This document shows positions 29,004-51,436 of a stretch of DNA of 51,436 nt, piece by piece. How positions within the stretch are numbered: position 1 is the first letter of the stretch; the number at the start of each line of letters is the position of its first letter. A model generated the notes under the pieces. The model was not told where the DNA came from and did no database searches. It saw only the letters and a program-made list of their open reading frames with translations. Origin of the DNA: a virus (taxonomy: Duplodnaviria > Heunggongvirae > Uroviricota > Caudoviricetes); IMG/VR virus record IMGVR_UViG_3300046542_000361. One strand, given 5' to 3'. Made by a program: the position numbers and the translations under genes.

Positions 29004-29745
29004 CCTCCATTTTCAGCCAGGCGTTTGCATTCGGATGAAAGACCGTCTCGCGGATCTCGGAATAGGTCGGCAGCTCGGTGCTCGAGGACAGCGCGATCAC
29101 CATGCCGTCGTGCTGAGCGTCCGGCGAGTGGTGCTCGACCTCGGCGCGATCGATACCGTGATCGGCCAGCGTATAGAGGACGATCTCGTTATAGACCGAC
29201 AGCAGCGTCTGGCGATAAACCGAACGGACGAAGAGCTTCGACTCCCACTTGCGCGAGGCCTTGTCGTGAAAGAAGAAGTCGATGTCGGTCTTGTTGCCGA
29301 TCATGTATTCGATCATCGCCGCGCGCTGGGATCGGCCGGACGAGCGAGACGCCAGCGACACTTCCAGACGCACCCGTTGAATCGATCTGCGCATCGTTGC
29401 GACGTCACGCGATGCTTGCGCAAGCAATTCGTCAGCGAGATATGCGCTAGACACGCTCAGATGCTCGAGCGCTTCGTCCGACAGATTTTCTGTGTCGTTG
29501 CTCGCAATTTCGTCAAGCGTCGCTGTGTGCGCAATCTCAGCGATTTCCTGAACTGCAGCCTGGATCGCATTGCCCTCGTTGCGCAGGAACGAAATGGCGA
29601 GCTCGCCGGCTTCCTGGGTCGCGGCGCTGTCATCGAGCACCTGGCTGTTCAGCGCCCGGCGATAGATCGACCGCAGGCCGTCGGTAAACATCGCGTAGCG
29701 AACGCTCGCCTGGCCGGCGAGGTCCGTTAGATGATTGCAGATCAT
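28984..29745 (-). CDS. Head morphogenesis/minor head protein-like
   Basis: Helical; ends FHPNA, resembling the HPNC motif of gp7/gpF-type proteins but without Cys. Confidence 0.45.
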   Translation of the reverse strand: MICNHLTDLAGQASVRYAMFTDGLRSIYRRALNSQVLDDSAATQEAGELAISFLRNEGNAIQAAVQEIAEIAHTATLDEIASNDTENLSDEALEHLSVSSAYLADELLAQASRDVATMRRSIQRVRLEVSLASRSSGRSQRAAMIEYMIGNKTDIDFFFHDKASRKWESKLFVRSVYRQTLLSVYNEIVLYTLADHGIDRAEVEHHSPDAQHDGMVIALSSSTELPTYSEIRETVFHPNANAWLKMEGADVHA

Positions 29746-48250: not shown

Positions 48251-48706
48251 TCAGAGGTTGGAAGTGGCTTCGTTGAGACTGAGCGTCAGGACAGGCCCGC
48301 CGCACCAGAAATCACAGGCCTTGGCCGCCTCGACGGCTTCGACCGCGTTGGCACCCATCTGGATCGCGCCGTGGGCGTATTTCTTGCCAGAGCCGATCGA
48401 CCAGGTGTTGCCGAAGAGCGGGCCTGAAGGCGTATAGCCGTCGCTGTAGAGGAAGACCTCGCCGGCTGGCGTGACGTGGATCGCGTCGAAGGCGGGCTCG
48501 CCCGGCATGTCAGCCTTTCGATCGGCGCCAGCAGCCAGCCAGTCGCGAAACGCTTCCGGCATGCCGATCTGGTTCGAGGTGATGCCGACAAGCCCACCGT
48601 CGGGTAGACGGTGGATCTTGCGCTTGTTGCCGACCGGGTGTTGATCTCCACCATAGGCACGACTGTCAGCGGCCATCACGCCCTCGTGATAGACGACGAC
48701 GCTCAT
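48251..48706 (-). CDS. Ntn-hydrolase (HslV/proteasome-beta-like) protein
   Basis: MSVVVY...MAADSR...KI...SIGSG...D..CGG; ATGA overlap. Confidence 0.75.
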   Translation of the reverse strand: MSVVVYHEGVMAADSRAYGGDQHPVGNKRKIHRLPDGGLVGITSNQIGMPEAFRDWLAAGADRKADMPGEPAFDAIHVTPAGEVFLYSDGYTPSGPLFGNTWSIGSGKKYAHGAIQMGANAVEAVEAAKACDFWCGGPVLTLSLNEATSNL

Positions 48707-49032
48707 GCGGCGTCCTCGGGCAGCTTGATGCGCTTGGGCTGGAAGACAGCCCGATTGAGCCACATGAAGGCCTCCTGGATGCTCCGGCGTGCGAGCTGGA
48801 CCATTGCCTGGTCGATCTCCTGGCTATCGCGGCTACGAACATGGCGATCGACCTGGCGCAGCACGCGTTCCTCGAGCTCCTTGTTCTCGTTGACCAGCGC
48901 AACCTTCTCGTCGCTCTGTGTGGTGTAGCCAGCGACGGGCAGGGGAGTGTGAACCGCCGCGGTTACACGACCGGCGAGGGGAATACCTTCAAGCGGGAAG
49001 CCGAAGGGCAGGGAGGCGTCTTTGTCGGACAT
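48703..49032 (-). CDS. Acb2-like anti-CBASS protein
   Basis: GYTTQSDEKVALVNENKE...LARRSIQEAFMWLNRAVFQP matches the Acb2 pattern GY-x9-N-x2-K...Q-x3-M-x3-RA-x2-QP. Confidence 0.75.
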   Translation of the reverse strand: MSDKDASLPFGFPLEGIPLAGRVTAAVHTPLPVAGYTTQSDEKVALVNENKELEERVLRQVDRHVRSRDSQEIDQAMVQLARRSIQEAFMWLNRAVFQPKRIKLPEDAA

Positions 49033-49069: not shown

Positions 49070-49951
49070 TTATTCGTCGTCGATGCGGTTGCCGATCGGG
49101 CCAAAGCGGGGCTTCCAGAGCAGCGTCGTGCCGGCAGGCACCATCGAGCTGAGATCGACGCTCTTGTCGGCCCAGATACCGCCCCAGACAGCCTTGGCGT
49201 GCTCTTCAGCAGCGACGGCAGCACAGGCTTCGCAACCACAGTCCTCAGCCGGCCCCTTGGTGATCTCGAACGGCCCCTCGCTTGCGACGCTGAGCGGATT
49301 GATCAGCTCGACGTCATCGTCATCCTCGTCGACCTCATCGACGATCGGCAGCAGCTCGTAGGAGCGCCAGGACGGATGCACATCGATGAAGCTGCCCACG
49401 GTCGTCTCCAGGCTCAGCTCGCCATCGACGTTGAGAATGGAGCAGACATCGAGGAACATCGAGTTCGACCCGTCGGCAAAGCGCACGAAGGCATTGGCCG
49501 GCTCGTCGAGCACCAGAACCAGATCATCGGCGATCGCCTTGATCTCCTCGTCGCGCTCCTGATGAGCGACCTGACGTCCAGCTTCGAAAGCCTGGTCGAT
49601 CATCGTCGAAACCCTGGCTTCGTGATCCGACATCGGAATCACATTCTGCTCGGTGTGATCGACGCCGATCAACTTGCCGGTGCCGAACGCCTTGCGCACG
49701 CCGTCGACGAAGGAGACGTAAGCGAAGGTCTCGAGCAGATAGGTGAGGGTGGTGCCTGCCTCGTCGCTCAGCTTGAAAGGCTGGCCGATCGCGAAGGCCT
49801 TCTCACCCTCGATGAGGAAGCGCGCCTGCAAAGGCGCGGTGACGAAGTGTGTCAGCTGACCGGTGCCGCCTGCGTAAAGGACATCGCCGCGCTGGGGAAA
49901 ATTGATCTTCATGGAATGTTGGATCCTTGGACGTTGGAATTGCCAGGACAT
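49070..49951 (-). CDS. Hypothetical protein
   Basis: 293 aa (alternative start 49912); acidic patch and CGCEAC motif. Confidence 0.65.
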   Translation of the reverse strand: MSWQFQRPRIQHSMKINFPQRGDVLYAGGTGQLTHFVTAPLQARFLIEGEKAFAIGQPFKLSDEAGTTLTYLLETFAYVSFVDGVRKAFGTGKLIGVDHTEQNVIPMSDHEARVSTMIDQAFEAGRQVAHQERDEEIKAIADDLVLVLDEPANAFVRFADGSNSMFLDVCSILNVDGELSLETTVGSFIDVHPSWRSYELLPIVDEVDEDDDDVELINPLSVASEGPFEITKGPAEDCGCEACAAVAAEEHAKAVWGGIWADKSVDLSSMVPAGTTLLWKPRFGPIGNRIDDE

Positions 49952-49967
49952 TATCCGAGCGCTCGCA

Positions 49968-49987
49968 GTCAGTCAATATTGATTGAT
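49968..49987. promoter_or_regulatory. 20-bp palindromic motif A
   Basis: GTCAGTCAATATTGATTGAT. Confidence 0.7.
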
Positions 49988-49999
49988 CGAAAAGAGGAT

Positions 50000-50056
50000 G
50001 GGTAGCTTGGGCAAGGGGAATCCGGGCTGCGGGGCAGGGGAACCGGGGCGCCGGGG
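50000..50056 (+). other. Cluster of eight G-runs (G-quadruplex-forming motif)
   Basis: G3-4 runs at 50000, 50009, 50015, 50024, 50031, 50037, 50045, 50053; loops of 2-6 nt. Confidence 0.7.
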
Positions 50057-50453
50057 ATTTGGTTGACGGATCACTACCCAGGGAGAGCTGTCCGTCCCGG
50101 TGAGGCACTAGGACAGGTAGTCGATGGTCGATTTTCGCCGGGCAGCAGTGGGCATCATGCTCGCACACGTCGAAAATCTCTAAGACTTCGATCACTGACG
50201 CGCGCAACGCTTTGACAGTGACACATAGCAGCTCGAGGGATCGATCGTCGCGCTTCTGTGACACATGACACTGCTCACACGTCTATGCGTGTCAGTGACG
50301 CTCTACGAGTCAAAGCGCGCGTATCATCACATAGCAATAATCATATGAAAATAAATTCGCGATTTAGCGATTTAGCTATTGCATGACACTGCGAACTAGT
50401 GTCTAAAGAGCATGTCAACAACGACAACTAGACAACACAAGAGAGAAACGAAC

Positions 50454-51026
50454 ATGACACACACTGTCGCAGTTAACGCTTACGCACTGTCTCTGTCTGC
50501 ACGCTATGACACTGAACTCGCAGCAAAGAAGTCTGCTAATTCGCTCAACTTCATATCGAAGTGCGCGCTTGTCGTATCGCAGAAGAGCGTTGCTGACATG
50601 CTCGCTGCATGCGAAGTCAAGACAGACTTTGCGCAAGATAGCGTTCAAGCTAACAGCGCGTTCTGCATGAAAGCGCTTGAGAATTGCGCTCACATGCTCG
50701 AGTTTGCAGCAAATACGCGTAACGTCGACAAGCTGAAAAGCAACGTCGAAGAAGTGCTGCGCACGCTCGTCAACTTCAAAAAGAACAATGAGCAATTCAG
50801 CGCAAGCGACATTGAAATCGCGCTTGATAAAAACATCAAAGTCGCGAAAGAGCGTGTCGCGCTTTACTATCGTCGCAAAGACGAATTCTCTTCTGCGAAG
50901 CGACACGCTTCTATGAACATGCGCGCACTTGTTGCACTCAACTTGCTCAAAGCTGCATCGAAAGACAAATACACTGTCAACGATAACGCGATCATGCAAG
51001 CGATCGAAGCGCGCTTCGCAGCGTAG
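50454..51026 (+). CDS. Hypothetical protein lacking Gly, Pro and Trp; possible C-terminal winged helix
   Basis: 190 aa from MTHTVAV (ORF open from 50412); lies inside the GG/CC-free tract. Confidence 0.75.
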   Translation: MTHTVAVNAYALSLSARYDTELAAKKSANSLNFISKCALVVSQKSVADMLAACEVKTDFAQDSVQANSAFCMKALENCAHMLEFAANTRNVDKLKSNVEEVLRTLVNFKKNNEQFSASDIEIALDKNIKVAKERVALYYRRKDEFSSAKRHASMNMRALVALNLLKAASKDKYTVNDNAIMQAIEARFAA

Positions 51027-51029
51027 ACA

Positions 51030-51049
51030 GTAAATCAAGATTGATTGCT
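51030..51049. promoter_or_regulatory. 20-bp palindromic motif A (degenerate)
   Basis: GTAAATCAAGATTGATTGCT. Confidence 0.6.
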
Positions 51050-51070
51050 AGCGCGTCATACGCGCTAGCA
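51046..51070. repeat. Perfect 11-bp hairpin
   Basis: TGCTAGCGCGT-CAT-ACGCGCTAGCA, no U tract. Confidence 0.7.
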
Positions 51071-51100
51071 CGTCGCAACAAATCACACGAAAGCAAAACG

Positions 51101-51256
51101 ATGTTCATTCTGTATCTGCGATTAGTCGCTGCACTCGTCAATTCACGCGCAGCTAATCGAGAACTGCAGCGCGCGCTAAGAGCGCGTCACACTGCACGCA
51201 TGCGCTCGAAGCGCGTCACAGAGCAACGTCGCGCGATTGTGTCACGTTTCAATTGA
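51101..51256 (+). CDS. Small basic hypothetical protein
   Basis: MFILYLRLV..., 51 aa, no G/P/W. Confidence 0.5.
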   Translation: MFILYLRLVAALVNSRAANRELQRALRARHTARMRSKRVTEQRRAIVSRFN

Positions 51257-51267
51257 AAGCTAGAGAC

Positions 51268-51436
51268 ATGAGCAAAAGCTATAGCGCAGCGCGCGTATCG
51301 CTGACCGAGCGCGAACTAAGAGACAGACAAAAGCGACGCGCGTTCAAGACGCGTAACGCGACCGGCGATAGTGTCGAATTGCTAGATCGACGTTTCGACT
51401 ATCAGCAAATCGACATATACGAAATGCTGAATATGC
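51268..51436 (+). CDS. Hypothetical protein, 3' end runs off the window
   Basis: Open frame MSKSYSAARVSLTERELRDRQKRRAFKTRNATGDSVELL... to the window end. Confidence 0.5.
   Translation, partial: MSKSYSAARVSLTERELRDRQKRRAFKTRNATGDSVELLDRRFDYQQIDIYEMLNM

What the first reader, a model, noticed from the sequence alone, without database searches (positions are those of the whole stretch)
50412..51256. Proteins and translation signals rebuilt to obey the GG/CC ban
Seen: the 190-aa and 51-aa ORFs contain no Gly (GGN), Pro (CCN) or Trp (TGG). Their upstream regions have no GGAG Shine-Dalgarno; AAGAGAG precedes ATG 50454 instead. Inference: the DNA constraint overrides protein and RBS optimisation, so the selection must be strong. 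The 190-aa protein ends in a helix-helix-beta pattern that could be a winged helix, and it may be an early regulator or anti-defence factor.
Basis: partly seen in the sequence, partly recalled or inferred. Interest (0 to 1): 0.7.

Follow-up and report, generated by a model that had tools for sequence, protein, structure and literature searches.

The report
Phage operon rewritten without GG/CC
One small operon of a Rhizobium phage-plasmid is kept free of the DNA words GG and CC, so its proteins have no glycine, proline or tryptophan and its ribosome-binding sites are rebuilt as GAGAG or GAAAG. Distant relatives keep the same trait, so something still unidentified reads that two-letter word.

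Summary

**The tract**
- Window 50152 to the window end is one rightward operon of an RHEph10-type Rhizobium phage-plasmid.
- It holds 5 GG/CC where about 150 are expected.

**The genes**
- ORF1 (190 aa) and ORF3 (64 aa, cut by the window end) are under clear purifying selection.
- ORF2 (51 aa) is an accessory gene under weaker constraint.

**The ban acts on nucleotides**
- Junctions between codons carry 0 GG/CC, against 23-32 expected.
- Non-coding DNA is purged too.
- 129-203 substitutions between relatives created only 0-2 GG/CC, against 32-50 expected.

**The wider family**
- Thirteen lineages, down to about 25% protein identity, keep the purge: 7 GG/CC in 14.1 kb.
- The two homologues in relaxed DNA have regained Gly, Pro and Trp. 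One of them also has an AAGG Shine-Dalgarno.

**Translation signal**
- The Shine-Dalgarno is replaced by GAGAG or GAAAG, 6-9 nt before the ATG.

**Protein and cause**
- ORF1 folds confidently, with a C-terminal winged helix, but belongs to no described family.
- What reads GG/CC is unknown.

This scan found the same cassette before in other genomes. Those notes gave leads only: a physical DNA end, and the element's own DNA-marking enzyme. I could not confirm either.

The parts
50152..51436 (.). GG/CC-purged tract. A 99%-identical contig shows that it continues about 100-150 bp past the window end, to just after a terminator-like hairpin.
   Evidence: 5 GG/CC against about 152 expected in 1256 bp. 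It is the only such tract in a 116-kb sister genome.
50178..50191 (+). Conserved landmark TCTCTAAGACTTCG at the 5' edge of the purge
   Evidence: The same word lies at the 5' edge of the purged tract in loci L009 and L023, whose ORF1 proteins are 28-36% identical to this one. Its function is unknown.
50235..50247 (+). GAGGGATCGATCG, the one GG-containing word kept in all five close relatives
   Evidence: Alignment. Its function is unknown.
50379..50407 (+). Predicted promoter: -35 TTGCAT (50379-50384), 17-nt spacer, -10 TCTAAA (50402-50407), with the start of transcription inferred near 50413
   Evidence: Read by eye from conservation in L005 and L021 (-10 TTTAGT) and L019 (-10 TATAGT), each followed by GAGCATGTCA. 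The consensus scanner found no promoter. Inferred, not shown.
50415..50453 (+). CA-rich 5' leader holding the GG-free Shine-Dalgarno substitute AAGAGAG (50439-50445, 8 nt before the ATG)
   Evidence: GAGAG lies 6-9 nt before the ATG in 9 of 10 strict lineages read.
50454..51026 (+). ORF1, 190 aa, no Gly/Pro/Trp. Two-part helical protein with a C-terminal winged helix (residues about 76-190).
   Evidence: Variable columns by codon position 29/23/112. 21 clusters of relatives. AF2 pLDDT 91.9. VIA Z up to 7.5. The antisense ORF 50415-51038 is a shadow.
51031..51048 (.). One copy of the element's dispersed palindrome (about 20 sites in the window) directly after the ORF1 stop
   Evidence: 62 matches against 11 expected. 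Another copy lies at 49969-49986.
51046..51070 (+). Perfect 11-bp-stem hairpin between ORF1 and ORF2
   Evidence: I17. Conserved in all five relatives.
51101..51256 (+). ORF2, 51 aa, no Gly/Pro/Trp. Accessory gene preceded by GAAAG (51089-51093, 7 nt before the ATG).
   Evidence: The 51-aa length is kept in 4 lineages. Variable columns 15/12/25, and synonymous and non-synonymous codon differences about equal. The segment is absent from RHEph10, Y2_11 and N1_10.
51268..51436 (+). ORF3, first 56 of 64 codons. Small Arg-rich protein preceded by GAAAG (51255-51259, 8 nt before the ATG).
   Evidence: Variable columns 6/5/27. Homologues follow ORF1 in L005, L021 and L022. Found on 115-119-kb contigs of cultured rhizobia.

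Best explanation
This is a self-contained rightward operon of a roughly 116-kb RHEph10-type Rhizobium phage-plasmid. In order it holds a promoter, a CA-rich leader, ORF1, an operator palindrome plus hairpin, the optional ORF2, ORF3 and a terminator. Purifying selection on the double-stranded DNA sequence keeps it free of GG and CC.

- Gly, Pro and Trp codons are impossible.
- Neighbouring codons are chosen so that no junction makes GG or CC.
- Loop glycines are replaced by Asn, Asp or Ser.
- A conserved recognition-helix position that is Trp in relaxed relatives is His or Gln here.
- The GGAGG-type Shine-Dalgarno is replaced by GAGAG or GAAAG at normal spacing.

Shown: the ban, its nucleotide-level nature, its age, its continuing maintenance, and the coding status of ORF1 and ORF3.

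Inferred: ORF1 is a DNA-binding regulator, from its winged-helix fold and net basic charge. Also inferred: the operon must stay invisible to a DNA-level reader of GG/CC, either a cut or a mark made by the host or by the element itself, so that it can be expressed when the rest of the genome is being read.
For: - **The purge is real and unique.** Searches give 5 GG/CC against about 152 expected. It is the only such tract in a 116-kb sister genome.
- **Both strands, coding and non-coding.** It covers about 260 bp upstream of the inferred start of transcription, the spacers between genes and the terminator.
- **Codon junctions.** 0 GG/CC against 23-32 expected, with a minimum of 11 in 2000 shuffles, in each of 7 lineages.
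- **Ongoing selection.** 129-203 substitutions made 0-2 GG/CC against 32-50 expected, with a minimum of 16 in 1000 simulations.
- **Coding.** Variable sites by codon position are 29/23/112 for ORF1 and 6/5/27 for ORF3.
- **Family-wide.** 14 of 20 distant cluster representatives have zero G/P/W. Thirteen lineages pooled give 7 GG/CC in 14,119 bp.
- **Relaxed lineages.** L016 and L017 have G/P/W, and Trp at position 151 where the other members have His or Gln. L016 also has an AAGG Shine-Dalgarno.
- **Shine-Dalgarno substitute.** It is conserved at 6-9 nt. In the sister phage 23 of 33 non-desert genes use a GG-containing Shine-Dalgarno.
- **Fold.**
- **Setting.** The next operon, divergently transcribed, encodes an Acb2/Tad1-domain protein.
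Against: - No reader of a two-base DNA word is known for rhizobia or these elements, and none was found here.
- The purge matches one transcription unit, which an RNA-level cause would also predict.
- The promoter and the start of transcription are inferred only; the consensus scanner found none.
- The rest of the genome has ordinary GG/CC density. A DNA-cutting reader would therefore still destroy the phage unless entry is stepwise or ORF1 acts first, and neither is shown.
- DNA binding by ORF1 is not shown. Winged helices also mediate protein contacts, and the best matches reach only Z 7.5.
Confidence: 0.55

Rival explanations
1. Self-avoidance. ORF1 itself is the reader: a DNA-binding protein that coats or silences DNA through GG/CC-containing contacts. 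Its own operon is purged so that it alone escapes.
For: The purge always travels with this protein family. The smallest purged tracts hold ORF1 plus 75-220 bp upstream and 18-50 bp downstream (L019, L020, L023). ORF1 has a winged helix. A tract very rich in G-runs abuts the purge.
Against: Winged-helix proteins normally read longer sites. The element's own genome is as rich in GG/CC as the host's, so a global binder would also silence it. No binding data exist. In the RHEph10 group the purge also covers ORF2 and ORF3.
Confidence: 0.15
2. RNA-level cause. The messenger RNA must lack GG and CC, for example to escape an RNase or an RNA-modifying defence that reads dinucleotides, or for translation reasons.
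For: The purge matches promoter to terminator in every lineage and includes the ribosome-binding sites. Earlier scan notes cite CmdTAC, a defence that marks GA in mRNA, as a precedent for an RNA reader of dinucleotides. I did not check this.
Against: Both GG and CC are banned about equally on the coding strand, as expected for double-stranded DNA. About 260 bp upstream of the inferred start of transcription is also purged here, and at least 70 bp in every lineage. No RNase or RNA-modifying enzyme is known to read both words.
Confidence: 0.15
3. Protein-first. The family does not need Gly, Pro or Trp, and the DNA pattern is a by-product of amino-acid content and low GC.
For: The proteins are mostly helical, and the island has 48% GC against 60% for the genome.
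Against: Codon junctions carry 0 GG/CC against 23-32 expected, and non-coding DNA is purged. Relaxed homologues use Gly in the loops and Trp at position 151.
Confidence: 0.02
4. Mutational erosion, such as a CC-specific deaminase acting on a highly transcribed tract, rather than selection.
For: GC content drops in the tract.
Against: The expected products are not enriched (TC 1.29, CT 1.15, GA 1.06, AG 0.95). Instead CG and GC rise to 1.75 and 1.85. Protein sequence is under strong purifying selection.
Confidence: 0.03

Closest known systems
First-step-transfer DNA of phage T5 lacking EcoRI sites, and the leading end of T7 (own knowledge, not checked in papers here)
   Same: A local stretch of phage DNA, carrying the first-expressed genes, is kept free of a word that a DNA enzyme reads. 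The rest of the genome is not.
   Different: Here the word is only two bases long, so proteins and ribosome-binding sites had to be rewritten. No reader is known. A position at the first-entering end is not shown: the cassette is internal in every large contig I saw, which says nothing for circular assemblies.
Restriction-site, PAM or CpG avoidance in phage genomes
   Same: A short word is depleted by selection and the depletion is maintained across relatives.
   Different: Those depletions are usually genome-wide and partial. This one is near-absolute, confined to one operon of 0.7-1.4 kb, and linked to one protein family.
Winged-helix transcription regulators (MarR, ArsR, PadR types) and winged-helix domains of kleisins and ORC
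   Same: ORF1 residues about 76-190 have the helix-turn-helix plus beta-wing topology. The nearly invariant Arg150 sits at the start of the predicted recognition helix.
   Different: There is no sequence match to any curated family. An extra N-terminal helical half is present. DNA binding is untested.
Canonical Shine-Dalgarno initiation (GGAGG pairing with CCUCC of 16S rRNA)
   Same: A purine-rich element lies at Shine-Dalgarno spacing, 6-9 nt before the ATG.
   Different: The GG core is replaced: GAGAG or GAAAG. By my own knowledge of the alphaproteobacterial 16S 3' end (CCUCCUUUCU), AGAGAG or AGAAAG could pair with the terminal CUUUCU rather than with the CCUCC core. Predicted duplex energies are -4 to -9 kcal/mol.

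Membership tests
Winged-helix (wHTH) DNA-binding domains | Three-helix core followed by a beta-hairpin wing | tested here: met
   AF2 model with pLDDT 91.9. H117-124, H132-137, H148-161, E165-169, E172-175. All of the top 50 VIA matches are winged-helix domains, Z 5.7-7.5, rmsd 2.3-5.4.
Winged-helix (wHTH) DNA-binding domains | Sequence membership of a curated wHTH family | tested here: not met
   Nothing above the cut-off in Pfam, PHROGs or NCBIfam, or in a profile search of the sequences of solved structures.
Winged-helix (wHTH) DNA-binding domains | Binds DNA | not testable with these tools
   Inferred only, from the fold, the net basic charge and the conserved Arg150.
Site avoidance in first-entering phage DNA (T5 first-step-transfer or T7 leading-end type) | A word locally absent far below expectation and held absent by selection | tested here: met
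Site avoidance in first-entering phage DNA (T5 first-step-transfer or T7 leading-end type) | The tract lies at the physical end that enters first | tested here: inconclusive
The cassette is internal in five contigs of 110-116 kb (L013, L014, L022, L023, L029). These are probably circular assemblies, so this is uninformative.
Site avoidance in first-entering phage DNA (T5 first-step-transfer or T7 leading-end type) | The avoided word is the site of a known host enzyme | not testable with these tools
   I know of no enzyme with a GG/CC dinucleotide site, and no host genome was at hand.
Canonical Shine-Dalgarno-led genes | GGAG, GAGG or AGGA core 5-10 nt before the start codon | tested here: not met
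   Absent before all three ATGs here and in 9 of 10 strict lineages. Present in 23 of 33 non-desert genes of the sister phage.
CRISPR PAM avoidance (type I-F CC, type II-A NGG) | PAM depleted wherever targeting would be lethal, that is across the genome | tested here: not met
   Outside the tract the GG and CC odds ratios are 0.74 and 0.80, which is ordinary density.
Ribbon-helix-helix proteins (considered for ORF3) | N-terminal beta-strand followed by two helices, forming a dimer | tested here: inconclusive
   The monomer model is poor (pLDDT 65.3) and shows two helices without a strand. No Pfam match.

The most novel reading that the evidence does not exclude
Rhizobia, or these phage-plasmids themselves, have an undescribed DNA-level reader of the dinucleotide step GG/CC, a nuclease or a base-marking enzyme. 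This operon is the element's reader-proof first or immunity gene set. As a side effect it yields natural, well-folded proteins made without Gly, Pro or Trp, and a working GG-free ribosome-binding site.
Probability: 0.45. Interest if true: 0.9.

Novelty: new variant of a known kind. Interest (0 to 1): 0.78.

Why it matters
**A possible new reader of DNA.** Short-word avoidance normally points to a reader of DNA. A two-base word held absent for as long as it took proteins to diverge to about 25% identity implies a reader of a kind not yet described. That could be a defence, or the element's own marking system.

**A test object for finding it.** The cassette is ready-made for the purpose: put GG/CC back and see what breaks, and in which host or mutant.

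**Protein fold.** The family is a natural experiment. A 190-residue two-domain protein folds confidently without Gly, Pro or Trp, using Asn, Asp or Ser in its turns.

**Translation.** It is also a natural experiment in initiation, with GAGAG or GAAAG in place of GGAGG.

**Annotation.** The purge leaves the antisense frame open, and the RHEph10 GenBank record annotates the wrong strand.

Tried and rejected
- **Family and RNA searches.** Pfam, PHROGs, NCBIfam and PADLOC gave nothing significant for ORF1, ORF2 or ORF3. A profile search against the sequences of solved structures gave only spurious BAR-domain hits. Rfam found nothing in 49900-51436.
- **Fold searches.** Foldseek against PDB gave nothing below E 0.1. 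Against viral models it found only the family itself and one unnamed protein.
- **ORF3 model.** Too poor to use.
- **ORF1 homodimer.** The job returned no verdict, so it is evidence neither way.
- **Consensus promoter scan.** It found no promoter.
- **Cultured phages.** tblastn with distant members (P0019, P0014) found no further cultured phages.
- **Relaxed lineages.** P0017 has no relatives on longer contigs. I therefore could not test whether relaxed lineages lack the ParB, ABC-ATPase and GNAT module beside the terminase.
- **Profile searches for loci.** Two failed for lack of conserved blocks.
- **Physical-end lead from earlier notes.** Contig ends near the cassette are mostly short metagenome fragments breaking at different points. 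I count this as uninformative. I first took the window end for a record end and dropped that idea.
- **Other banned words.** Apart from GG/CC, only GTAC is clearly low, 6 against 28 when both strands are counted.
- **Literature.** Searches found no description of the trait.

Full report
**What the window is.** The last 1.3 kb of the window matches, at 80-84% DNA identity, seven records (five distinct phages) of Rhizobium phages RHEph10, RHph_N1_15, N2_6, N1_10, Y2_11 and Y2_17_1, all 115-117 kb. The same protein is encoded on a 115.6-kb plasmid of Pararhizobium qamdonense. ORF3 homologues lie on 115-119-kb contigs of Rhizobium lentis, R. azibense and R. bangladeshense. The element is therefore a phage-plasmid, as the literature already suspected for RHEph10 (PMC7969092).

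**The observation.**
- GG or CC occurs 6979 times in the window. The largest gap between occurrences is 1067 bp (50238 to 51305), and the next largest outside this tract is 105 bp.
- From 50151 to the window end there are 6 occurrences. A tract of 1256 bp holds 5 against about 152 expected from its own base composition.
- CG and GC are enriched (odds 1.75 and 1.85), so G and C are kept but never doubled.
- ORF1 and ORF2 have no Gly, Pro or Trp. Other proteins of the sister phage carry 12.1% of these residues.
- No GGAG precedes any start codon. AAGAGAG lies 8 nt before ATG 50454.

**Anatomy.**
- Alignment with four distinct relatives shows one unit on the + strand, flanked by minus-strand genes.
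- About 300 bp of conserved upstream DNA comes first. It holds one conserved GG-containing word, GAGGGATCGATCG. Then follow ORF1, a palindrome and a perfect hairpin, a segment with ORF2 that is present only in the window and N1_15 lineages, ORF3, and a hairpin after which GG/CC resume.
- Variable alignment columns fall 29/23/112 on codon positions 1/2/3 of ORF1 and 6/5/27 of ORF3, so both are coding on the + strand.
- The stretch 50412-50453 varies 4/3/4 and has indels that are not multiples of three, so the start is ATG 50454.
- The 207-aa antisense ORF uses the same triplets and is a shadow. RHEph10's GenBank record annotates that strand.
- ORF2 keeps its 51-aa length in four lineages, with 15/12/25 variable columns and about equal synonymous and non-synonymous codon differences. 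It is probably a real but accessory gene.

**The ban acts on nucleotides, not amino acids.**
- In seven lineages the junctions between codons carry 0 GG/CC. Shuffling codon order gives 23-32, never fewer than 11 in 2000 trials.
- Non-coding DNA on both sides of the genes is purged.
- Selection is still acting. The 129-203 substitutions that separate the window from each relative inside the strict tract produced 0-2 GG/CC. Random substitutions with the same positions or the same spectrum give 32-50, with a minimum of 16.
- Deamination-type products are not enriched.

**Depth of the trait.**
- A search of 1.8 billion cluster representatives found 21 clusters at 24-47% identity. Fourteen of the 20 besides the query have no G, P or W.
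- Their DNA, fetched from metagenome and viral contigs, shows strict purges of 0.7-1.4 kb around the gene in every case examined: L005, L007, L009, L019, L020, L013, L014, L021, L022, L023, L029 and L037.
- Pooled, 13 lineages give 7 GG/CC in 14,119 bp, and only GTAC is otherwise clearly low.
- Gene order around the cassette is conserved even in L023, a 110-kb contig of 49% GC.
- The smallest purged tracts hold ORF1 with 75-220 bp upstream and 18-50 bp downstream.
- Two sister homologues sit in relaxed DNA. L016 has GG 18 against 46 expected and CC 4 against 31. L017 has 17 against 27 and 10 against 18.5.
- Those two proteins carry 4.3% and 7.9% G+P+W. They have Gly in loops where strict members have Asn, Asp or Ser. 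Both have Trp at position 151, in the predicted recognition helix next to the nearly invariant Arg150, where the other members have His or Gln.

**Translation signals.**
- In the sister phage, 23 of 33 genes outside the tract have a GG-containing Shine-Dalgarno.
- In nine of ten strict lineages read, ORF1 is preceded by GAGAG, 6-9 nt before the ATG, after a CA-rich leader. The exception is L020, where the called ATG may be wrong.
- ORF2 and ORF3 have GAAAG or GAGAG at 7-8 nt.
- The relaxed L016 has AAGG. Neighbouring genes just outside purged tracts have GGAGG.
- Predicted pairing energies with the 16S 3' end, whose sequence I took from memory, are -4 to -9 kcal/mol. That is at the weak end of this phage's range.
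- So the ribosome-binding site has been rebuilt, not lost.

**Promoter (inferred).**
- TTGCAT, then 17 nt, then TCTAAA, followed by GAGCATGTCAAC, is conserved. L005 and L021 have TTTAGT and L019 has TATAGT at the -10 position. The scanner found nothing.
- If +1 is near 50413, about 260 bp of purged DNA lies upstream of the transcript.
- A word, TCTCTAAGACTTCG, marks the 5' edge of the purge here and in L009 and L023.

**The proteins.**
- ORF1 folds with pLDDT 91.9 and pTM 0.87.
- Residues about 76-190 match only winged-helix domains (Z 5.7-7.5). The level is modest, but all of the top 50 rows agree.
- No curated family matches.
- ORF3 is a small Arg-rich protein with a poor model.
- A copy of the element's dispersed palindrome sits directly after ORF1.
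- The divergent neighbouring operon encodes an Acb2/Tad1-domain protein (E 2e-16). This fits an early or anti-defence neighbourhood but proves nothing about ORF1.

**Why the ban exists.**
- This is not solved. The symmetry of the ban (GG and CC alike on the coding strand) and the purged promoter-side DNA favour a reader of double-stranded DNA.
- I rank the explanations as follows: escape of a must-express operon from a GG/CC-directed cut or mark, 0.55; self-avoidance by ORF1, 0.15; an RNA-level reader, 0.15; protein-first or mutational causes, 0.05 together.
- Earlier notes of this scan report the same cassette in other genomes. They propose that it lies at a physical DNA end, or that it escapes the element's own DNA-marking module. 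I could not test either idea.

Noticed in passing
L002 12287-12967 (RHEph10 gp148, JX483881.1 99105-99785): GenBank annotates the antisense shadow ORF of ORF1. The purge removes the codons whose complements are stops, so the opposite strand stays open. Codon-position variability shows the other strand is the coding one.
   Followed up: yes
window 48703-49032 (-): A 109-aa protein with an Acb2/Tad1 hairpin domain (Pfam PF24729, E 2e-16). It is a candidate cyclic-nucleotide sponge (anti-CBASS or anti-Thoeris type) in the operon that diverges from the purged unit. A gene with the same Pfam domain lies in that position in L005, L024/L025, L029 and L037.
   Followed up: partly
window 29374-29547: A second, small GG/CC-poor stretch: 173 bp with one CC, about 23 expected. 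It lies inside the gene annotated 'putative minor capsid protein' in N1_15. The homologous stretch in N1_15 (L010 9646-9829) is also poor. Unexplained.
   Followed up: partly
window 50000-50085: A tract very rich in G-runs, enough for G-quadruplexes, lies about 70-150 bp before the purge begins. G-run-rich DNA also precedes the purge in distant lineages (L007, L036). Several metagenome contigs break there.
   Followed up: partly
window 49969-49986, 51031-51048 and about 18 other sites: A dispersed palindrome of the type TCAATATTGATTGA occurs in intergenic gaps: 62 pattern matches against 11 expected. One copy sits inside the purged unit, right after the ORF1 stop.
   Followed up: partly
window 50100-50160 (-), and L005, L009, L013: A block GGCAGCAGTGGGCATC, with GGCATCC(CC) in distant lineages, is conserved just outside the 5' edge of the purge. 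It could be read as a minus-strand peptide (..DAxCCP..), but L023 has a stop just after the landmark motif, so a DNA element seems more likely.
   Followed up: partly
L031 about 20-100: In the P0023 lineage the DNA upstream of the cassette looks like a tRNA gene on the opposite strand (T-arm-like GGGACTCGAACCC). I did not run ARAGORN.
   Followed up: no
L010 28691-30553 (N1_15 EVB78_067): The sister phage has a gene annotated 'A1 protein', the name of the T5 pre-early protein. It lies in the middle of the genome, far from the purged unit.
   Followed up: no
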